Positions 20,040 to 48,790 of a DNA stretch of 64,000 nt are shown here, in pieces. The position numbers were made by a program, and so were the translations under genes. The first letter of the stretch is position 1; each line of letters begins with the position of its first letter. The stretch is from assembly GCA_965249275.1 (NCBI GenBank), contig CBDFLQ010000007.1:704001-768000 (forward strand). The letters run 5' to 3'. The notes beneath the pieces were generated by a model that worked only from the letters and a program-made list of their open reading frames with translations, was not told the origin of the DNA and did not search any database. Source of the stretch: Dehalococcoidia bacterium (GTDB lineage Bacteria > Chloroflexota > Dehalococcoidia > Plut-88900).

Positions 20040-20380
20040 GGAAGCCTGTCCGCCTTAGGCGGATCATTCCGGCCGCCGAGAGCCGGTCGAAGATGCTGAA
20101 AGTGCGCCTTTGGCGTGCGCCGAGGCGTGAATCCATCCCCCGGCCGATGGCCCGCTCACCCTGAGCCTGCTGTAAGTCCGCTGAGGCGGATCGAAGGGTC
20201 GAGCGGGGGGCGGCCCCCGACTGCCAATCCGTCACCCCCGCCGTCATCCCAACCAAGCCCCCCTACCCTGTCATTCCGAGGCCCCGCGAGGAATCTGGGG
20301 GGCGGAGTCCTATCCCCTCTCCCTTTGACGGGAGAGGGCTAGAGCCTGCCCCGAGTCCCCCCGAGGGGGTGAGGGTGATC
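20040..20380. repeat. Cluster of several REP-like palindrome families
   Basis: ccgccttaggcgg; ccgctcaccctgag..gagcgg; gtcattccgag..gaatct (inverse at 47760-47800); ccctctccc..gggagaggg..gggtgaggg (inverse at ~48535). Confidence 0.75.
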
Positions 20381-20390
20381 CCCCCCAAAA

Positions 20391-20434
20391 GTGACACCAG
20401 CCCCTTGACCCGATATGAACATATGTACTATATT
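20391..20434 (+). promoter_or_regulatory. Sigma70-type promoter with LexA-like box (copy A)
   Basis: GTGACACCAGCCCC-TTGACC-N18-TATATT with GAACATATGTAC (20417-20428) in the spacer; homologous promoters at 32122-32164 and 48473-48516. Confidence 0.7.
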
Positions 20435-20439
20435 CTCCC

Positions 20440-21235
20440 CCAGGCCCCGACACCAAACATCGGGCCCAATCAGGAAAGGACCAAAGGAGTCCCATGAGTC
20501 GCACAAGCCTTCATAGGCCCCGTCGACACCGAGCGGTATGCCACCGCCCGGCCACCGGCACGCGCCTCCTCCCCAGCCCCTTCCCACCCACCATCCTTCA
20601 CATCAACACCCACTACAAGCGCTGCCCAAAGGCCCTACGCCTACGCCTTCGCAGCGATCAGTCACCGTCCCGCCCCCTGTATGGAAGGTCCCCGGACAAA
20701 TCACGGCACGCCCTTTCCAAGGACCACTGCCAAGTGCGCGCCCCACTCACCCGGCGCATCCGTTTCGCCTCCTCAGGCGACGCCCTGGAGCACGGCGTCA
20801 TGTCGCTCCCTCGGGCCATAGCGCCCCCTTGGGCCATAGCGCCCTCTTCGGACTCCCCCGGCGTAGACCTTGCCGGCCAGTCCGAACAGTCGGACAACCC
20901 CCGACTCAAAACAAACGCACCATTTAAGGATTCCACCGTCGTCACAACCGGAGAACACCCGACTACGAACGGCGGTCACGGGTCCCCGCTCCCATCCCAT
21001 AGGGTGGTCGAGCACTTCTGGTGGACGGGACTGCCCCACGCCGAGAATTTCTCGGGTCTCGTTCACATCCCCTCAGAAGTTAGGGGCTGTCGCAGAGCCG
21101 TCCCCGATGTGGAACATCCGCTGGAGCGGACGCCAAGCATCGGTACAGGCGTAGACGCCTTCTCGCGCAACCGTCCGGGACCTTCCATCACCCTCCCATC
21201 CCCCACCCACAACCCCACATATCCCTCACCGACCA
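20440..21235 (+). ncRNA. Candidate large structured ncRNA, copy A (divergent family member)
   Basis: Domain 20681-21188 closed by ATGGAAGGTCC(C)CGGAC / GTCCGGGACCTTCCAT; many internal hairpins; C/A-rich leader and tail as in copies B and C. Confidence 0.5.
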
Positions 21236-21248
21236 TTGGAGGCCGCCC

Positions 21249-21551
21249 ATGCCTAGAGGAGGCCGCCGGCCCGGCGCCGGCGCACCCAAAGGAAACTACA
21301 ACGCTTTCAAGCACGGCAAGAACTCCCGCCGCCTGCGGGAGCTCGCCGCCATCCTTGCCCTCGTACCCCGCACCCGCCGCCCTGCCCAGGGTGACCCCCA
21401 GAAAGCCCGGCTCGCTTCCGCCCTCGCACTCTCCTCCTTTATGGACCGCCTTTCCCTCCACTCTTTGCAACTCACCGACCCCGCCATGCAAAACCTCCAT
21501 CGTGCCGTCAAAGCCCTTCAACCTCCCAAACCTAAGCGCTCAAGGGAATAG
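21249..21551 (+). CDS. Small basic protein with GAPKGNxNAxKHG motif (phage terminase-small-subunit-like motif)
   Basis: GGAGG RBS before the ATG; MPRGGRRPGAGAPKGNYNAFKHG. Confidence 0.65.
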   Translation: MPRGGRRPGAGAPKGNYNAFKHGKNSRRLRELAAILALVPRTRRPAQGDPQKARLASALALSSFMDRLSLHSLQLTDPAMQNLHRAVKALQPPKPKRSRE

Positions 21552-23338: not shown

Positions 23339-24939
<1,601 letters not shown>

Positions 24940-29649: not shown

Positions 29650-31308
29650 CTAGCTGCTCCCTTCCGGTTTCCAGCGAGTTACCGTCACGGGTTCATATTC
29701 CAATTGAGGCCCGTTACCCGAGGCCCGTGCCACGGTATGTTTGAGCCAGTTTTCATCGTCTCTATTGGGGAAGTCCAGGCGGGAGTGAGAACCTCGGCTC
29801 TCTTCTCGGGCTAAGGCGGATGCTACGGTAACCTGGGCTATGTCCAGCATGTTGCCCAGCTCGATTATCGAAGCAACCTCCGTGTTGTAACCTGTTGCAG
29901 GGCCCTGGATTCCGACAGCGTCACACCGCTCGCGCAATTCTGAGAGCTTTTCTACAGCTGCATTGAGGCCGGAGGCGTCCCGGTATATGCCCACGTTGTC
30001 CTGCATCAGAGAGGCTAGTTCCCGTCTTATCACACCGGCAGACTCGACTCCCTTTTCCCTGGCCGATATTCCCGCTATTCTCCTCTCCTCGTCTGCCTGC
30101 TGGACAGACAGGTCGGGCGCGGGACCTGCGATTCCTGCGACACCCGCCGCTGACGCTCCTGCGCGCCGCCCTACGGCCACGCTCTCCAGCAAAGAGTTGC
30201 CTCCAAGCCGGTTGGCGCCGTTCAGGCCCGAGTTCGCACACTCACCCGCGGCGAAAAGTCCGGCAACCTGGGAAGCCCCGGATGCATCTATCTTGATACC
30301 ACCGATGGGGCGATGCATGGCCGGTTGAACTGGTACCGGGTCCTTGGTTATGTCAATGCCTGTTAGGTCTTTGACGAGGAGGCGGGTCTCGGGAAGCCGT
30401 TGGGCCAGCCGATCAGAGTCAAGGCTGCGGAAGTCAAGGAAGATGGCCGCACTGGCAATTTCATCAGCCACGGCTCGGGTGACTACATCATTGGAAGATA
30501 GCGCAATGGCAGCGCCCGCATCGCCGGATGCGATAGGTCCGTCGTCGGAGCGGACCAGAATTGCCCCTTCACCCCTCGCGGCCGCAGTGATCAAGAGGCC
30601 ATTGGGCGCCAGGGCCGTTGGAGCGAACTGGACCATCTCCATGTCCCGCAGGGGGGCGCCAGCCCGGTAAGCCATAGCAGGCCCGTCGGCAGTGGAAGCC
30701 GTCGAGCCCGTGCTGTTGCGGTACATTCGGCCCATCCCTCCGGTTGCCAGTACCACTGCCCCGGAGGAATAGGCAGCCAATGTGCCGTCCTTCAGGTTGC
30801 GGGCAAACACACCCTGGCAGGAACCGTCATCCATAGTAATCAAGGATACGGCGGACCATTCGTAAAAGAGAGGTATCTGCATCCTGAGGACCTGTTCGAA
30901 AAGGGAGTTCAGGATGTTGTGACCCGTGGCGTCGGCACAGTAGCAGGTCCGAGCCTCGGAGGAAGCGGGAAAGCGGGTCTGGTGTATGCGTCCTTCGGCA
31001 TTACGGTCAAATGGGACGCCCATGTGCTCGAGTCCTATGACTCGGGCGGGAGCCTCCTGGCAGACGGCTTCAACCACGTCCTGGTCGGAGAGGTATGCGC
31101 CCGCCTTCACGGTGTCGAGACCATGAGACTCCCAGGCATTGTCACCCCTGAGGCCCGCGTTTATACCGCTATGAGCCCCCGACGAGTGGCTGCGGAGCGG
31201 GTGTTGCTTGGAAAGTATGCAGACGTTGGCTCCATGCTCCCGGGCCGACAGGGCGGCGCTCATTCCGGCGAAGCCTCCGCCAACTACTACTACGTCATAT
31301 CGAGGCAA
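29650..31308 (-). CDS. sdhA: SdhA/FrdA-family flavoprotein with non-canonical active site
   Basis: GGGFAG, RSHS (FAD His), LATGG, GANRLGGNSL, ESRGSH. QFHPT->QFAPT, TE->TA, PRD->SND. Confidence 0.8.
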   Translation of the reverse strand: MPRYDVVVVGGGFAGMSAALSAREHGANVCILSKQHPLRSHSSGAHSGINAGLRGDNAWESHGLDTVKAGAYLSDQDVVEAVCQEAPARVIGLEHMGVPFDRNAEGRIHQTRFPASSEARTCYCADATGHNILNSLFEQVLRMQIPLFYEWSAVSLITMDDGSCQGVFARNLKDGTLAAYSSGAVVLATGGMGRMYRNSTGSTASTADGPAMAYRAGAPLRDMEMVQFAPTALAPNGLLITAAARGEGAILVRSDDGPIASGDAGAAIALSSNDVVTRAVADEIASAAIFLDFRSLDSDRLAQRLPETRLLVKDLTGIDITKDPVPVQPAMHRPIGGIKIDASGASQVAGLFAAGECANSGLNGANRLGGNSLLESVAVGRRAGASAAGVAGIAGPAPDLSVQQADEERRIAGISAREKGVESAGVIRRELASLMQDNVGIYRDASGLNAAVEKLSELRERCDAVGIQGPATGYNTEVASIIELGNMLDIAQVTVASALAREESRGSHSRLDFPNRDDENWLKHTVARASGNGPQLEYEPVTVTRWKPEGSS

Positions 31309-31394
31309 TGGCTCCTCCTGTTTGGAAATAGAACGCGGCTATCAGGGCTGTGGCCGCGGCGCGATTATATTTAATGGCTGGGGCGGGTGTCAAA

Positions 31395-32115
31395 AGGATG
31401 TACTCGTTCGGTAGGTTAGCGACACACCGGCCTTTTCTTCAGTCCTCCAGAGGCGGATCCTCCAGAGGCGGATGTTCCATCTTCGATTGTGGGGTTTCGG
31501 TTTCCGTTCTGTCTGTTGGGTTTTGGGAAGGCGATGGAAGACGCTTGCTGGATTCGGCTCCCTATTTTTAGATAATGCGGGCTTGGAGGCGTCCCGGGAA
31601 CGTGGGGACGGGTCTCCGCCGCCGCCTAGACCTGGAAGTATGGTCGGACGTACGGGTCCGTCATCCGTCATAGGCTCCGATGCAGGGTTGGCTGCGCTGT
31701 CCGCCGCAGGCGGGTGCAGGAAGGGGAAAGTCCAGGGTCAGTTCCCCTCGCAGGAGTACGGGGTATCCAGTTCGCCGCCTGTAGCCCGGAGCCGGGAGAC
31801 GGCGGCAGCCCAGTTTATTTGGTAAGCGGACGGAGAGCCGAGCGGGCCTCGGCTACGGGCTGCCCCGTTCCGCTCCATGGGACGAGAGCTCCGAAAGGAG
31901 CCATAGGGACAATTACGGTCCAGGGCGTCTTCCATCGCCTGATGGTCAGGGAAGGGATAGCCGGGGCCCTGGGTAGAGGAGATGGCGGCGTTCGCTTGTG
32001 CCGTGGGGCGGCGTGTGGGCCGCCCTTTGGGATGGGCTTGGACGTTGAGTCCTCGGGGCCGGGTGGGCTTCCCTAGTTTTTGGTACCTCCTTAAGGTGGG
32101 TGTCGGGTCTAGACT
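31395..32115 (-). ncRNA. Candidate large structured ncRNA, copy B
   Basis: Closely homologous to 47800-48465 over ~530 nt; 16-bp perfect IR AGGCGATGGAAGACGC (31529-31544) / 31925-31940; no ORF conserved between the copies. Confidence 0.6.
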
Positions 32116-32121
32116 GGCCCC

Positions 32122-32164
32122 ATAATAGAACAAATGTCTTAAGCGGTCAAGGGGGTGATGTCAC
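32122..32164 (-). promoter_or_regulatory. Sigma70-type promoter with LexA-like box (copy B)
   Basis: Minus strand GTGACATCACCCCC-TTGACC-N17-TATTAT; box GAACAAATGTCT at 32128-32139. Confidence 0.65.
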
Positions 32165-32271
32165 CCTCTATGTGAACGGGATAAAAGCATGTACGGCCAT
32201 AACCTCGTGATATCATGTCCTAAGTTCCGCACTACATCGTTGCACTCAATTACAAATGGAGGTCTACGCGC

Positions 32272-46492: not shown

Positions 46493-47746
46493 ATTGAGGG
46501 TGTTCCAATAAATCCTAGACCGAGGCTGTTTTACGGATGGTGGATCGTCATCGGCTCAATTCCGGTGTCGATCATAACGGGGGCATTCTTCTACGGATTC
46601 TCGGCACTGTTCGACCCGATTATCGAGGAGTTCGGGTGGTCGAGAGCCCTGACCTCCGTGGCCTTTGCGTTGCAGCAAGGGGAGAGCGGGGTAGCTGCGC
46701 CGGTGGTGGGCGTGCTGGTCGACAAGCTGGGCCCGAGGCGGGTCATCATGGTGGGTGGGGTTATCTACGGGGTCGGGTTTCTCCTTCTGGGCTACATAGA
46801 TGGGCTTTGGATGTTCTACATGATGTTCCTGGTCATCTCCGTAGGGTCCAGCGGGTGCAACCCAATCGTTACATACATTGCTGCGGCCCAGTGGTTTCGC
46901 CGAAAGAGAGGCCGGAGCATGGGGATAATCTCGCTGGGCTCGGCGTTCAGCGGGATCATGGTGTACCTGCTCGTGGTGCTTATTTCCCAGTTTGGGTGGC
47001 GGACCACGGTACAGGTGTTGGGTATTGCATCATGGGCGGTCATCCTGCCGCTAGCCCTGGTATTCAGGCATCGGCCTGAGCAATATGGACTCCTGCCCGA
47101 CGGCGACGTGGCAGGGACTGATTCCCCCGTCTACTCCAGACGCACGGAGGTCGACTTTCGTTTCAAGGAGGCTGTATCCACGCGGACATTCTGGTACCTG
47201 GGGGCTGTGTTTACGCTGTGGACGCTGGTCCACGGGGCGGTAATCTCCCAGTTGATCTCTGCACTGAAGCTGGATGGAAACGTATCGTTGACCGTGGCGG
47301 GCGCAGCGGCCGCGGGGGTACCGCTATTCAGCGTGATAGGTCGGCTGGGGATGGGATCGCTGTCAGATTTCGTCGACAAAAAGGCTGTAGTGGTGGTCAG
47401 TCTGGCAATCCAAGCGATGGGGTTGGTGCTGTTAGCCAACCTTGCGACACCTTTGCTTGCTATAGCAGGGTCATTTTTCTATGGGGTGGGGTCGGGTGGG
47501 GTGATTCCCGTGCGGTCGGCGCTGCAGGCCGACCTGTTCGGGGCCCGGAACTTCGGCACGATACAGGGCGGGCTCCGGCTTCTGTCCACGGCGGGAGGGG
47601 TAGCCGGCCCGATCATGGCCGGGGGAATAGCCGACGCGCAGGACTCCTACCGGCTGTTCTACTACATATGCGTTGGGGCACTGGTGGCAACGGCGGTATT
47701 TGTGATGCTGCTGAGACAGCCTCGGGTCCCGGGTAGCCGGGGTTAG
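46493..47746 (+). CDS. MFS transporter (start uncertain; first canonical start at 46565)
   Basis: In-frame RPRLFYGWWIV lies upstream of 46565; GVLVDKLGPR motif A. Confidence 0.88.
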   Translation: MEGVPINPRPRLFYGWWIVIGSIPVSIITGAFFYGFSALFDPIIEEFGWSRALTSVAFALQQGESGVAAPVVGVLVDKLGPRRVIMVGGVIYGVGFLLLGYIDGLWMFYMMFLVISVGSSGCNPIVTYIAAAQWFRRKRGRSMGIISLGSAFSGIMVYLLVVLISQFGWRTTVQVLGIASWAVILPLALVFRHRPEQYGLLPDGDVAGTDSPVYSRRTEVDFRFKEAVSTRTFWYLGAVFTLWTLVHGAVISQLISALKLDGNVSLTVAGAAAAGVPLFSVIGRLGMGSLSDFVDKKAVVVVSLAIQAMGLVLLANLATPLLAIAGSFFYGVGSGGVIPVRSALQADLFGARNFGTIQGGLRLLSTAGGVAGPIMAGGIADAQDSYRLFYYICVGALVATAVFVMLLRQPRVPGSRG

Positions 47747-47757
47747 GGGGCAGGGAG

Positions 47758-47800
47758 GGGAGTCCCCGCCCCAGATTCCTCGCGGAGCCTCGGAATGACG
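47758..47800. repeat. REP-like palindrome (AGATTCCTCGCGG..CCTCGGAATGAC)
   Basis: Inverse of 20270-20310; related copy near 48598-48625. Confidence 0.75.
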
Positions 47801-48465
47801 AGGGAGCAGGCGGTGGTTATTCAGTTGGGATTCGAGGGTTTGGTTTCTTGGTTTTGGTTGGTGGGGTGGCGATGGAAGACGCTCGCTGGATTAGGCTCCC
47901 TATATTTAGATAATGCGGGCATGGAGGCGTCCCGGGAACGTGGGACGGGGCTCCGCCGCCGCCTAGACCTGGAAGTATGGTCGGACGTACGGGTCCGTCA
48001 TCCGTCATAGGCTCCAATGAGGGTTGGCTGCGCTGTCCGCCGTAGGCGGGTGCAGGAAGGGGAAAGTCCAGGGTCAGTTCCCCTCGCAGGAGTAGTGGAT
48101 ATCCGGTTCGCCGCCTGTATCCAGGAGCCCGGAGTGGCGGACAGTCCAGTTTTATTTGAGGAAGCGGACGGAGAGCCGAGCGGGCCTCGGCTACGGGCCG
48201 CCCCGTTCCGCTCCATGGGACGGGTTGCTCCGTGAGGAGACTTTTAAGTACGGTCCAGGGCGTCTTCCATCGCGGGGATCAGGGTAAGGGATAGCCGGGG
48301 CCCTTGGTAGAGGAGATGGCGGCGTTCGCTTGAGCCGCGGGACGGCTTGTGGGCCGCCCTTTGGGATGGGCTTAGACGTTGAGTCCTCCATTACGTGGGT
48401 CGGGGCTGGGTTTCCCCCCTGGGTTTTGTTACCTCCTTGGGTTTGGGGTGGGTGACGGATCAGTC
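47800..48465 (-). ncRNA. Candidate large structured ncRNA, copy C
   Basis: Homologous to copy B; 14-bp perfect IR GCGATGGAAGACGC (47869-47882) / 48260-48273. Confidence 0.6.
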
Positions 48466-48472
48466 GTGGGTG

Positions 48473-48516
48473 AATATAGTACATGTGTACTTATTGAGTC
48501 AAGGGGCTGGTGTCAC
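48473..48516 (-). promoter_or_regulatory. Sigma70-type promoter with LexA-like box (copy C)
   Basis: Minus strand GTGACACCAGCCCC-TTGACT-N18-TATATT; palindromic GTAC-N4-GTAC at 48479-48490. Confidence 0.7.
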
Positions 48517-48532
48517 TTTTTGCCAATAAGGA

Positions 48533-48790
48533 TCACCCTCACCCTAGCCCTCTCCCATCAAAGGGAGAGGGGACAGGACCGGTACAGACCCCGCACCGGA
48601 TTCCCCGCGGGACCTCGGGATGACAGGGGGGCTGCGGTGAAGGTGCAGGGTGAGCGCGATATATTGTCAGAACTGGGCCGCCCCCCGCTCGACCCTTCGA
48701 GGGCCTCCCGCCTGAGGCGGATCTTCGACAGGGTGAGCAGCCACTCTCAGGGATGGGTTCCCGTGTCGGGGCACGGGAATGATGGGGGAT
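48533..48790. repeat. Cluster of REP-like palindromes
   Basis: ccctcaccctagccctctccc..gggagaggg; gattccccgcgggacctcgggatgac; ccgctcgacccttcga..gggtgagc; ttcccgtgtcggggcacgggaatga. Confidence 0.75.

What the first reader, a model, noticed from the sequence alone, without database searches (positions are those of the whole stretch)
31395..32164. Multi-copy, apparently SOS-controlled large non-coding RNA family (copy B; homologs at 47800-48516 and 20391-21235)
Seen in sequence: three unlinked intergenic regions share one architecture in one orientation. (i) A near-identical promoter, GTGACAyCAsCCCC-TTGACy-N17/18-TATwwT. (ii) A C/A-rich leader with an SD sequence and an AAGC-N4-CCCAAAGG block. 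(iii) A 405-508-nt hairpin-dense domain closed by a 14-16-bp helix whose core is always ATGGAAG...CTTCCAT, with a central CAAAwAAAC-like linker. (iv) A C/A-rich unstructured tail. Copies B and C align closely over ~530 nt, but no reading frame is conserved between them. Homology extends outside the inverted repeat into the leader and promoter, which argues against a simple MITE. Inference: a family of large structured ncRNAs (size class of OLE/ROOL/GOLLD/HEARO) expressed on DNA damage. Alternatives are a structured ssDNA element (ssi/Frpo-like) or a non-autonomous mobile RNA. I recognise no known family. Caveat: one hairpin carries GNRA loops (GAAA in B, GTGA in C) on the opposite strand, so the functional strand is not settled.
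Basis: partly seen in the sequence, partly recalled or inferred. Interest (0 to 1): 0.9.

Follow-up and report, generated by a model that had tools for sequence, protein, structure and literature searches.

The report
Mobile element carrying a structured RNA gene
This stretch is one of about sixty copies of a jumping DNA element that carries its own switchable promoter and a folded, non-coding RNA, and that lands right in front of host gene promoters in one lineage of Dehalococcoidia bacteria.

Summary
Copy B (window 31399-32184, minus strand, 786 bp) belongs to a family with at least 64 copies in this 2.9 Mb genome. The family is in all 8 congeneric genomes and not clearly in 146 other genomes of the class.

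B is a transposed insertion. It has 26-bp imperfect terminal inverted repeats and a 5-bp target duplication. Relatives keep the uninterrupted empty site, where the insertion point lies exactly 5' of a host -35 hexamer.

Each copy carries:
- a sigma-70-type promoter with a palindromic operator abutting the -10;
- a C-rich leader with an SD-like AAGGAGG and no reading frame;
- a long closing helix (GCGATGGAAG/CTTCCATCGC);
- a 340-500 nt core of many exchangeable subfamilies;
- a C/A-rich tail.

Metatranscriptome contigs from 4 runs cover leader, core and tail but not the promoter. One core class keeps a three-way junction plus hairpin with compensatory changes (95.5% paired against 79.5% shuffled), and G-U pairs favour the transcribed strand. 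Rfam has no match.

SOS (LexA) control is plausible but unproven: no copy has the canonical box. The RNA's function is unknown.

Verdict: a new RNA family carried by a MITE-like transposon.

The parts
31399..32184 (-). Copy B, whole mobile unit (786 bp) from left to right terminal inverted repeat
   Evidence: Homology among full-length copies starts at TGATCCCGTTCAC (B: TTATCCCG) and ends at CGAACGAGTACA. Exactly this span is missing at the orthologous site of G003, G001 and G008.
32159..32184 (-). Left terminal inverted repeat, TTATCCCGTTCACATAGAGGGTGACA
   Evidence: alignment. It pairs imperfectly with the reverse complement of the right end (TG..C.CGTTC..TAG...GTGACA); this was read.
31399..31424 (-). 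Right terminal inverted repeat, TGTCGCTAACCTACCGAACGAGTACA
32185..32189 (-). Left copy of the 5-bp target-site duplication (TGCTT)
   Evidence: The empty site in G003 reads ..ACAGGCTT|TTGACA... B's two copies are TGCTT and TCCTT. 10 of 18 end pairs in the genome have identical 5-mers (read).
31394..31398 (-). Right copy of the target-site duplication (TCCTT)
32122..32150 (-). Element's own promoter, TTGACC-N17-TATTAT, preceded by GTGACAT at 32158-32164
   Evidence: 64 copies keep this layout.
32128..32139 (-). Operator-like imperfect palindrome AGACATTTGTTC abutting the -10
   Evidence: across 64 copies the AC of the left half is kept in 62-63, the GT of the right half in 61 and the final C in 62. 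It resembles the lexA box GAACGCCCGTTC without matching it.
31941..32115 (-). C-rich leader (start inferred about 7 nt after the -10) with SD-like AAGGAGG at 32086-32092 and no start codon after it
   Evidence: This is the most repeated module: 54 BLAST copies. SD-like in 55 of 64 copies. RNA contigs and their loose ends reach the SD.
31925..31940 (-). 5' arm of the closing helix, AGGCGATGGAAGACGC
   Evidence: The core GCGATGGAAG is kept in all subfamilies. The extension covaries (GACGC/GCGTC against GGTCC/GGACC), and so does the outer pair (A-T, C-G, T-A).
31545..31924 (-). Core RNA domain (380 nt), class I, B subfamily
   Evidence: 134 cores fall into 34 clusters at 80% identity. Folded.
31632..31756 (-). 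Three-way junction (P1 CUGCG/CGCAG; Ha AGGGGAA/UUCCCCU with loop ..CCCUGGA..; Hb), then CAGCCAACCC, GGAGCC and hairpin Hc
   Evidence: Match to covariance model R1, which was built without B-type sequences (E 0.0055). Helices are listed; pair counts are.
31529..31544 (-). 3' arm of the closing helix, GCGTCTTCCATCGCCT
31425..31528 (-). C/A-rich tail with the repeated ATCCGCCTCTGGAGG unit
   Evidence: RNA contig cover fades between 31459 and 31408.
31364..31393 (-). Host promoter TTGACA-N18-TATAAT of the downstream FAD-type oxidoreductase gene (ORF 31308..29650). It is not part of the element.
   Evidence: 12 of 12. It is present uninterrupted at the empty sites. RNA contigs of the gene end at 31314 and 31347.
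47817..48520 (-). Copy C: B-type core, another leader type, short tail ending ..CAACTGAATAA, no terminal inverted repeats
   Evidence: R1 match at 47969-48092.
20387..21235 (+). Copy A: same promoter form and closing-helix core (arms 20681-20692 and 21177-21188), with a different leader and a class II core
   Evidence: It is not matched by R1 or by BLAST from B.

Best explanation
Copy B is a non-autonomous DNA transposon, MITE-like but 786 bp long. Its cargo is a self-promoted gene for a structured non-coding RNA.

Shown:
- 26-bp imperfect terminal inverted repeats with TG..CA-type ends.
- A 5-bp target duplication.
- Insertion exactly 5' of a host -35 hexamer, co-directional with the host gene.
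- Empty sites in relatives.
- No reading frame.
- A conserved sigma-70-type promoter whose -10 is abutted by a conserved imperfect palindrome.
- RNA covering leader, core and tail.
- A covarying three-way junction plus hairpin inside one class of cores, on the transcribed strand.
- Mosaic combinations of leader, core and tail, with cores exchanged at orthologous loci exactly at the closing helix.

Inferred:
- A DDE (rve, IS481-like) transposase supplied in trans moves it.
- A dimeric repressor sits on the palindrome and blocks the -10. LexA is the leading candidate, which would make the RNA damage-induced.
- The roughly 0.7 kb transcript is clamped by the 14-17 bp closing helix. That helix may be an RNase III site that releases the ~380 nt core.
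- Recombination between the conserved leader, arms and tail shuffles the cores.

What the RNA does is not known. My best guess is that it serves the element or the host in trans as a folded RNA with conserved loops (CUGGA, CAGCCAACCC, GGAGCC). I do not think it acts on the neighbouring gene, because contigs show no read-through.
For: Copy number:
- 61 places match B.
- 64 of 76 promoters of this form are followed by the closing helix.

Mobility:
- 18 left-end/right-end pairs were listed. 10 have identical 5-mers flanking them and 2 more match 4 of 5 (read).
- 11 of 18 have TTG starting 6 nt after the right end.
- The B locus is empty in G003, G001 and G008 with ..GGCTT|TTGACA-N18-TATAAT intact. 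By match ranges it is also empty in G004, G006 and G007.

Promoter and operator are conserved in 61-63 of 64 copies.

Transcription:
- 4 of 4 RNA runs laid give contigs over 31459-32070 and none over 32071-32223.
- Contigs of the flanking genes stop at 31314 or 31347 and start at 32261.
- Loose ends show other core subfamilies joined to the same leader.

Structure:
- The junction architecture is found in 27 of 44 distinct sequences by a strict parse, against 12 of 1760 shuffles.
- Model R1 was seeded with 4 subfamilies. It finds 58 matches, all on the promoter's strand, including the B and C6_81013 subfamilies that were not in the seed.
- On that alignment 95.5% of 1053 cells pair, against 79.5 +/- 0.8 in shuffles (0 of 500) and 35-47% with slid partners.
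- 14 of 21 pairs have changes on both sides (1 of 500 shuffles reach this).
- Covariation score is 0.370 against 0.133.
- G-U 66 against A-C 20.

Selection:
- Orthologous copies in G002 and G003 are 90-99% identical per 100 nt, like the flanking genes.

Core exchange at orthologous loci.

Enzymes:
- 22 rve matches from three IS481-like families with TGTA..TACA ends, one of them with a 5-bp duplication.
- RNase III is present.
Against: - No autonomous element with these repeats was found in this genome, and other genomes were not searched for one. None of the three resident IS481-like families has the same ends.
- Only about 18 of 64 copies have both terminal repeats. The others start near AAAAGTGACAC and end near CAACTGAATAA without repeats, so their mode of spread is unexplained.
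- Within subfamilies, changes at predicted pairs are mostly disruptive: G-U 326, A-C 255, other 407, double compensatory 44.
- Without the arms the interiors fold only modestly better than shuffles (about -2.1 on average; B type -1.08).
- The pair counts rest on an alignment fitted to the model, and the sequences are related.
- Class II cores, copy A among them, were not tested for covariation.
- None of the 64 operator boxes listed is GAAC-N4-GTTC.
- The same GTGACAC-N7-TTGAC promoter form stands before uvrC and a tRNA gene, the tRNA one without the palindrome. The promoter may therefore be a general host type.
- Contigs give neither strand nor ends.
Confidence: 0.62

Rival explanations
1. 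It is a purely selfish MITE. The promoter and the folds are by-products of a G+C-rich repeat, and the RNA has no function.
For: - Terminal repeats, target duplication and empty sites.
- The B-type interior is no better folded than shuffles (z -1.08).
- Within-subfamily changes do not spare predicted pairs.
- The family is confined to one genus.
Against: - Six subfamilies keep one three-way junction with different helix sequences and conserved loops.
- The promoter and operator are kept in 61-63 of 64 copies across diverged leader types.
- Orthologous copies are as conserved as the flanking genes.
- The interior shows no remnant of a resident transposase (best E 0.07).
Confidence: 0.17
2. It is a host regulon of large SOS-induced ncRNAs. 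LexA represses about 60 RNA genes that act in the DNA-damage response, and mobility is only how the genes were spread.
For: - The palindrome nAC-N4-GTnC abuts the -10 in 62-63 of 64 copies.
- lexA carries GAACGCCCGTTC, and recA carries a half-site in its promoter.
- uvrC has the same promoter form with the right half-site.
- The RNA is made.
Against: - No copy has the canonical box. The commonest form is GTAC-N4-GTAC (TACACATGTACT, 8 of 64), which differs from GAAC/GTTC at one base in each half.
- Binding was not tested.
- RNA is present in environmental libraries whose damage state is unknown.
- The palindrome could belong to another repressor.
Confidence: 0.12
3. It is a cassette system acting at the DNA level. 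The invariant arms GCGATGGAAG/CTTCCATCGC are recombination sites, folded single strands or duplex, at which cores are exchanged by a site-specific enzyme. The RNA is secondary.
For: - Cores differ at orthologous loci while leader and tail stay 87-93% identical, with the breaks at the arms.
- The same core cluster occurs with three leader types and with or without the right repeat.
- The arms are invariant across 34 core clusters.
Against: - No core is inverted relative to its leader (0 minus-strand matches).
- No leader-to-tail junction without a core was seen in the genome. The one RNA joint is short-sided (24 nt) and is not trusted.
- No recombinase is linked to the copies.
- Ordinary homologous recombination between the 165-nt leader and the tail explains the mosaics.
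Confidence: 0.07
4. It is a protein-coding gene family with an unusual start, or a proline/arginine-rich product.
For: - A strong SD-like AAGGAGG in 55 of 64 copies.
- Long open frames on the C-rich strand, for example 409 aa across copy A.
Against: - No start codon 3-10 nt after the SD in 49 of 55 copies.
- Indels of 1, 2 and 4 nt between close copies in leader and core.
- The frame opened by the ATG in the closing arm ends after 8 codons in C but runs on in B; I translated this by eye.
- Long frames are expected on a strand poor in G and T (composition).
Confidence: 0.02

Closest known systems
Bacterial MITEs that are transcribed or give rise to small RNAs (Correia elements of Neisseria, BOX, RUP and ERIC are recalled; Coxiella MITEs PMC5896051 and the review PMC3184786 were seen only as search listings and abstract starts)
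   Same: - Non-autonomous, multi-copy and intergenic.
- Terminal inverted repeats and a short target duplication.
- Can carry promoters and fold as RNA.
   Different: - 786 bp rather than about 100-400 bp.
- A complete regulated promoter with an operator.
- A ~380 nt interior that is not a collapsed IS and has a covarying junction with conserved loops.
- Interchangeable core subfamilies.
- Insertion exactly 5' of -35 hexamers.
Transposon-borne guide or bridge RNAs (HEARO/omega RNA of IS200/IS605 IscB and TnpB; IS110 bridge RNA) - recalled
   Same: A structured ncRNA that is multi-copy because it rides on a mobile element.
   Different: - No adjacent nuclease or recombinase gene.
- No Y1 transposase in the genome.
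- No Rfam HEARO match.
- The ends are inverted repeats with a 5-bp duplication, the mark of DDE transposition.
Large bacterial ncRNAs of unknown or recently found function (OLE, ROOL, GOLLD, raiA) - recalled
   Same: - Size class.
- Multi-helix architecture with conserved unpaired motifs.
- No coding capacity.
   Different: - Those occur in one to a few copies, are not bounded by transposon ends and are spread over many genera.
- This family has about 60-100 copies per genome and is confined to one genus among those searched.
- No Rfam match at any threshold tried.
IS481-family insertion sequences resident in the same genome (families 1, 3 and 4)
   Same: - Ends beginning TGT/TGA and finishing ACA.
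- A 5-bp duplication (family 3: ATTCC).
- Strict target choice: these ISs insert into two REP-like repeats.
- Subterminal ACATAG..GT(A/G)ACA motifs resemble the element's repeats (read).
   Different: - The repeats are not the same sequence.
- The element has no transposase.
- Its target is the 5' edge of -35 hexamers, not REP sequences.
Processing stems around rRNA precursors (RNase III) - recalled
   Same: A long perfect helix formed by sequences flanking a large structured RNA, downstream of a strong promoter and leader.
   Different: - No cleavage is shown here.
- The helix is 12-17 bp.

Membership tests
Non-autonomous TIR transposon (MITE-like) | Terminal inverted repeats | tested here: met
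   26-bp imperfect repeats at 32184-32159 and 31424-31399, shared by about 18 copies. They are absent from the other roughly 46 copies.
Non-autonomous TIR transposon (MITE-like) | Target-site duplication and empty sites | tested here: met
   10 of 18 end pairs have identical flanking 5-mers and 2 more match 4 of 5 (read). The empty B site was read in G003, G001 and G008.
Non-autonomous TIR transposon (MITE-like) | No transposase gene inside; multi-copy | tested here: met
   tblastn of 4 resident transposases against 64 elements gave a best E of 0.07. 61 places match B.
Non-autonomous TIR transposon (MITE-like) | An autonomous partner with the same ends | tested here: not met
   None in this genome, which is 87% complete. 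Congeners were not searched for one.
Non-autonomous TIR transposon (MITE-like) | Miniature size (usually under about 500 bp; recalled) | tested here: not met
   786 bp.
LexA (SOS) regulon | LexA box of the organism's type (GAAC-N4-GTTC, as at its own lexA) overlapping the promoter | tested here: inconclusive
   The lexA box is GAACGCCCGTTC. None of the 64 element boxes listed is canonical, but AC-N4-GT..C is kept in 61-63 of 64.
LexA (SOS) regulon | LexA binding and induction by DNA damage | not testable with these tools
   No binding or induction data. The RNA runs come from environmental samples.
Rfam families, including OLE, ROOL, GOLLD, HEARO, raiA, group I/II introns and RNase P | Covariance-model match | tested here: not met
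   - Window at gathering scores: only 16S rRNA.
- E-value scans of B, of A and of six other copies: nothing better than E 0.22.
IS200/IS605 omega RNA / HEARO | Y1 transposase, or a TnpB/IscB gene beside the RNA | tested here: not met
   No Y1_Tnp in the genome. Recurrent neighbours are ISs and catabolic paralogs only. TnpB itself was not searched.
Retron or other RT-dependent element | Reverse transcriptase gene | tested here: not met
   No RVT_1 match in the genome, which is 87% complete.
Invertible DNA switch (inverton) | The segment between the inverted repeats is found in both orientations | tested here: not met
   0 minus-strand matches among 64 cores.
Structured functional RNA (general) | Compensatory base changes in helices, on the transcribed strand | tested here: met
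   Met for the 117-position domain of class I cores only: 14 of 21 pairs; G-U 66 against A-C 20. The alignment is fitted to the model. The rest of the core and class II were not tested.
Type I toxin mRNA (hok-like) | Conserved small ORF | tested here: not met
   No frame is kept between B and C or among subfamilies.

The most novel reading that the evidence does not exclude
This is a new kind of mobile RNA-gene system. A promoter-operator-leader-clamp scaffold homes to the 5' edge of host -35 hexamers and carries interchangeable folded RNA modules: at least 34 core subfamilies in at least two structural classes. The RNAs are switched on together by one repressor, possibly LexA on DNA damage. 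They act in trans, for example as guides, decoys or assemblies, for the element's own transposition or for the symbiont's stress response.
Probability: 0.2. Interest if true: 0.9.

Novelty: new variant of a known kind. Interest (0 to 1): 0.72.

Why it matters
- If the RNA is functional, this is a large bacterial ncRNA family present at about 60-100 promoter-bearing copies per genome (roughly 1.5-2% of the DNA). That is unlike the single-copy large ncRNAs known so far.
- It is carried by a transposon with an unusually exact target, the base pair 5' of a -35 hexamer.
- That target choice puts a strong, regulated, co-directional transcription unit in front of host genes.
- It also leaves portable promoter pieces behind. 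A solo left end is fused to the groES promoter, and the same promoter form stands before uvrC and a tRNA gene. The element may therefore be reshaping promoters in an uncultured symbiont lineage.
- The swappable cores inside a fixed scaffold offer a natural test bed for how RNA modules evolve.
- The closed MAG chromosomes now available make the family directly testable.

Tried and rejected
- Rfam at gathering and at E-value thresholds on B, A and six other copies gave nothing usable.
- Inverton idea: rejected, no core is inverted.
- Decayed transposase inside the element: rejected.
- Retron or group II route: no RVT_1 found.
- IS200/IS605 route: no Y1_Tnp found.
- Rho-dependent terminator in the C-rich tail: Rho_RNA_bind was not found in this 87% complete genome, so the idea is left without support. 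No intrinsic terminator lies on the minus strand.
- 5' stabiliser (STAB-SD, recalled from Bacillus) for the orphan AAGGAGG: RNase J is present. The predicted unpaired probability of the SD (0.35) is below the RNA's mean (0.45), so there is no support from folding.
- Within-subfamily covariation on MFE structures was uninformative.
- RNAalifold on plain MAFFT alignments found only hairpin Hc, because the helices were out of register.
- mafft-qinsi is not functional in the box; the script failed.
- A clean empty site from loci L026 and L028 could not be read, because the region is rearranged next to a tRNA gene.
- The RNA joint 31541>32027 (one contig, 24-nt side) is not trusted.
- Parts of the stretch without RNA cover are noted only together with the contigs that stop beside them.
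- Recurrent neighbours (amidohydrolase-like in 13 loci, LLM-type oxidoreductase in 7) may only reflect large paralog families. The names are my reading of the N-termini and were not tested.
- Viral contigs: 0 matches to the leader pattern.
- Literature: four searches listed no paper on this family. I read listings and abstract starts only and opened no paper. Supplements are closed and were not asked for.
- Structure prediction, the protein searches and complex prediction were not used, because there is no protein in the finding.
Full report
**What is there**

The region reads on the minus strand. Going 5' to 3', copy B has these parts:
- a left terminal repeat, TTATCCCGTTCACATAGAGGGTGACA (32184-32159);
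- a promoter, TTGACC-N17-TATTAT (32150-32122);
- the imperfect palindrome AGACATTTGTTC, which abuts the -10;
- a C-rich leader with AAGGAGG (32092-32086) and no start codon behind it;
- a 16-bp closing helix (31940-31925 with 31544-31529);
- a 380-nt core;
- a C/A-rich tail;
- a right terminal repeat ending ..CGAACGAGTACA at 31399.

Five bases further on stands a perfect host promoter, TTGACA-N18-TATAAT (31393-31364). It precedes a gene whose product begins with a GGGFAG dinucleotide-binding motif (ORF 31308..29650; the name is my reading and was not tested).

**How many copies, and where**

- A BLAST of B against its own 2.9 Mb assembly gives 61 places.
- Along B, the leader is hit 54 times, the promoter 22, the core 12-21 and the tail 22-31.
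- A pattern for the promoter form finds 76 sites. 64 of them are followed by GCGATGGAAG ... CTTCCATCGC at 230-730 nt.
- The other 12 include real gene promoters. One precedes a tRNA gene and one precedes uvrC (Pfam UvrC domains).
- All 8 congeneric genomes hold dozens of matches. Of 22 other genomes in that search, 2 gave marginal hits.
- An exact two-word leader pattern hits 77 stretches in six closed chromosomes, all titled 'MAG: Dehalococcoidia bacterium'.
- The same pattern hits no viral contig and six short contigs of one metagenome project.

**It is a transposon**

Full-length copies share sequence from TGATCCCGTTCAC to CGAACGAGTACA, and no further. The two ends are imperfect inverted repeats: TG..C.CGTTC..TAG...GTGACA.

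Among 18 left/right end pairs (read by eye):
- 10 are flanked by identical 5-mers, for example CAGGG, GCGGA, GCATT, CACCG, GGGGC, CCCCC, CAGGT and TCAGC;
- 2 more, B among them, match at 4 of 5;
- 6 do not match, and three of these are nested or mis-paired ends.

In 11 of 18 the host sequence after the right duplication starts with TTG, and a -10-like hexamer follows 17-18 nt later. tRNA genes lie behind two such promoters.

The decisive check is the orthologous site of B:
- In G003 and G001 the two flanks abut.
- In G004, G006, G007 and G008 they lie about 68 nt apart.
- The sequences of G003, G001 and G008 read ..ACAGGCTT|TTGACACCCGGCC..TATAAT.. without the element.
- In G000 the same site reads TGCTT + element + TCCTT + TTGACA.

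So the 786-bp unit was inserted with a 5-bp duplication exactly 5' of a pre-existing -35 hexamer, co-directional with the host gene.

On the enzyme that moves it:
- The genome has 22 rve-type transposase matches in three IS481-like families.
- Their ends are TGTA..TACA. Family 3 makes a 5-bp duplication. They insert into two REP-like repeats.
- None has the element's repeats. The subterminal ACATAG..GT(A/G)ACA motifs are alike, which is suggestive only.
- No autonomous partner was found in this genome.
- No reverse transcriptase and no Y1 transposase were found either (the genome is 87% complete).
- The interior is not a decayed resident transposase.

About 46 of the 64 copies, C and A among them, lack the terminal repeats. 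They begin near AAAAGTGACAC, often just after REP-like repeats, and end near CAACTGAATAA. How these spread is not explained.

**Mosaic build**

- The 64 cores fall into 23 clusters at 80% identity. With relatives added, 134 cores fall into 34 clusters.
- One core cluster occurs with different leader types and with or without the right repeat.
- At orthologous loci the core can differ while the rest is conserved:
  - G005 against G000 at C6:293569: promoter and leader are 87-91 of 100 identical, the core 41-62 of 100, the flank 94-99.
  - At B's own locus, G002 and G005 keep tail and leader at 92-93% but hold another core.
- The breaks fall at the closing helix.
- No core is inverted, so this is exchange and not inversion.

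**Is it transcribed?**

Four metatranscriptome runs were laid (coded X15-X18, three studies; two are labelled sponge metagenome). They are held as contigs.
- All four give contigs at 90% identity or more over 31459-32070.
- None covers 32071-32223.
- Loose ends continue into ..GGTTCCTC (the SD) of other copies, and into the 5' ends of other core subfamilies.
- Contigs of the flanking genes stop at 31314 and 31347, just downstream of the host -10, and start at 32261, 11 nt before the moeA-like ATG (that name is my reading).
- This pattern is what RNA gives and what contaminating DNA would not give. It also argues against read-through into the host gene.
- Contigs show neither strand nor ends, and depths sum over paralogs.

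**Is it coding?**

No.
- Close copies differ by 1-, 2- and 4-nt indels in leader and core.
- 49 of 55 SD-bearing copies have no start codon 3-10 nt after the SD.
- Long open frames such as the 409-aa one over A fit a strand with 12-20% G or T in leader and tail.

**Is it structured?**

Less than it looks, but part of it clearly is.
- With its arms, the B core folds at z = -3.97 on the transcribed strand and -2.68 on the other. Most of that is the closing helix.
- Ten interiors without arms give z from +0.88 to -4.50 on the transcribed strand. The average is about -2.1 from the ten listed values; the B type gives -1.08. The other strand averages about -1.3.
- Within subfamilies, changes at MFE pairs are mostly disruptive.

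Across subfamilies one domain is conserved. Six subfamilies ('class I': those of B, C6_81013, C7_119539, C6_663190, C5_715846 and C7_624528) fold independently into the same three-way junction:

| Helix | Forms seen |
|---|---|
| P1 | CUGCG/CGCAG, CUGC/GCAG, CUGU/ACAG, CUGA/UCAG |
| Ha | AGGGGAA/UUCCCCU, GAGGCUC/GAGCCUC, GAGGCCCG/CGGGCCUC, GGGGCC/GGCCCC, GGGGGCCA/UGGCCCCC |
| Hb | CUGC/GCAG, CUGCAU/AUGCAG, GCCGC/GCGGU, GUGCC/GGCAU, GCUGC/GCAGU, GUGCCC/GGGCAU |

- The Ha loop holds a conserved ..(C)AGCUGGA...
- The junction is followed by CAGCCAACCC, GGAGCC and a hairpin, CGGAC/GUCCG.
- A strict parse finds this architecture in 27 of 44 distinct sequences and in 12 of 1760 shuffles. Most of the 17 misses are B-type sequences whose Hb has an internal loop.

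A covariance model tested this formally.
- It was seeded from four of the subfamilies (13 sequences; the structure was given by me).
- It finds 58 matches in 728 kb, all on the promoter's strand. They include the two subfamilies left out of the seed, with B at 31632-31756 and C at 47969-48092.
- On the resulting alignment 95.5% of 1053 cells pair, against 79.5 +/- 0.8 in shuffles (0 of 500) and 35-47% with partners slid by 1-3 columns.
- 14 of 21 pairs have changes on both sides (10.0 +/- 1.3 in shuffles; 1 of 500 reach 14).
- The covariation score is 0.370 against 0.133 in shuffles and 0.035-0.082 with slid partners.
- G-U cells number 66 and A-C cells 20. The helices therefore pair better on the transcribed strand (95.5%) than on its complement (91.2%).

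Caveats: the alignment is fitted to the model, the sequences are related, and only 117 positions of one core class were tested. Class II cores, A among them, share other islands (GRCUCCACC, GGUCGAGC, CCCCAC..GUGGGGAU; read) and were not tested.

The closing helix also covaries beyond its invariant core.

The model matches 9 of 12 genomes of the order: all nine of the genus, G000 among them, and none of three other genera. In a class sample of 151 genomes it matches all 5 genomes of the genus and gives only two marginal hits (E 0.002-0.004) among the 146 others.

**SOS control?**

- The organism's lexA has GAACGCCCGTTC just after its -10. recA has GAACACATATCC across its -10.
- The element's box keeps AC-N4-GT..C in 61-63 of 64 copies. 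The second and eleventh bases vary (A/T/G), and none of the 64 boxes listed is canonical.
- The commonest box is TACACATGTACT (8 copies). B has GACATTTGTTCT.
- Conservation across diverged leaders shows that a dimeric protein site is under selection. That the protein is LexA is a reasonable guess, which I put at about one in three.

**Verdict**

The part of the interpretation that set it apart from mobile DNA is wrong.

The best-supported account is a non-autonomous, promoter-seeking transposon that carries a regulated gene for a structured RNA with exchangeable cores. The RNA family is new to Rfam. Its function and its regulator remain open.

Noticed in passing
G000:C6:928770-928829 (minus strand), outside the window: A solo left terminal repeat plus GTGACATCAACCCCTTG is fused to the -35 of the groES-groEL promoter. 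A CIRCE-like inverted repeat (TTAGCACTC-N9-GAGTGCTAA) follows it. This looks like an element lost by deletion between its own -35 and the host -35, which leaves a hybrid promoter.
   Followed up: partly
L131 (G000:C7:587700-591700) and G000:C5:117381: The GTGACAC-N7-TTGAC promoter form also stands before uvrC (Pfam UvrC domains) and before a tRNA gene. The uvrC copy keeps the right half of the palindrome and the tRNA copy has none. Either host genes captured element promoters or the element captured a common host promoter type.
   Followed up: partly
window 20200-20385, 47745-47815 and 48520-48700: Several REP-like repeats flank copies A and C: GTCATTCCGAGGCTCCGCGAGGAATCTGG, CCCCTCTCCCATCGAGGGAGAGGGG and GGGTGAGGGTGATCC. 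Two of them are the specific insertion targets of the resident IS481-like families.
   Followed up: partly
G000, many sites (for example C7:459473-460831, C7:249207-250427, C7:452105-453160): Four IS families are present at 97-100% identity:
- family 1: rve, 1356 bp, 8 copies;
- family 2: IS5-like, 1206 bp, 11 copies;
- family 3: rve, 1057 bp, 12 copies;
- family 4: rve, 2 copies.
They often end 13-250 bp upstream of an element promoter.
   Followed up: partly
window 23339-24936 (+): A complete bacterial 16S rRNA gene (Rfam SSU_rRNA_bacteria, 1512.6 bits).
   Followed up: no
window 21249-21551 (+): A 100-aa basic ORF (MPRGGRRPGAGAPKGNYNAFKHG...) lies just after copy A. It has no Pfam match and is not part of other A-type copies.
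   Followed up: partly
window 20780-20860 (copy A core) and G000:C5:169173 copy: Class II cores hold short tandem hairpin units of the form GGGCCATAGCGCCC. There are up to about eight in one copy, so core length varies with the number of these units.
   Followed up: no
Flanks of 64 elements in G000: Genes just downstream and co-directional are often paralogs of two large families. One has an amidohydrolase-like N-terminus (13 loci) and the other is a luciferase-like/FMN oxidoreductase type (7 loci). The names are my reading and were not tested.
   Followed up: no
G000:C4 against C7:583783-592579, and C3 against C6:162650-171632: Small contigs C3 and C4 are 92-94% identical to stretches of C6 and C7 over 6.5-7.6 kb. 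They may be a second strain or a collapsed duplicate in the assembly. One element copy is therefore counted twice (C4:6577 and C7:586287).
   Followed up: no
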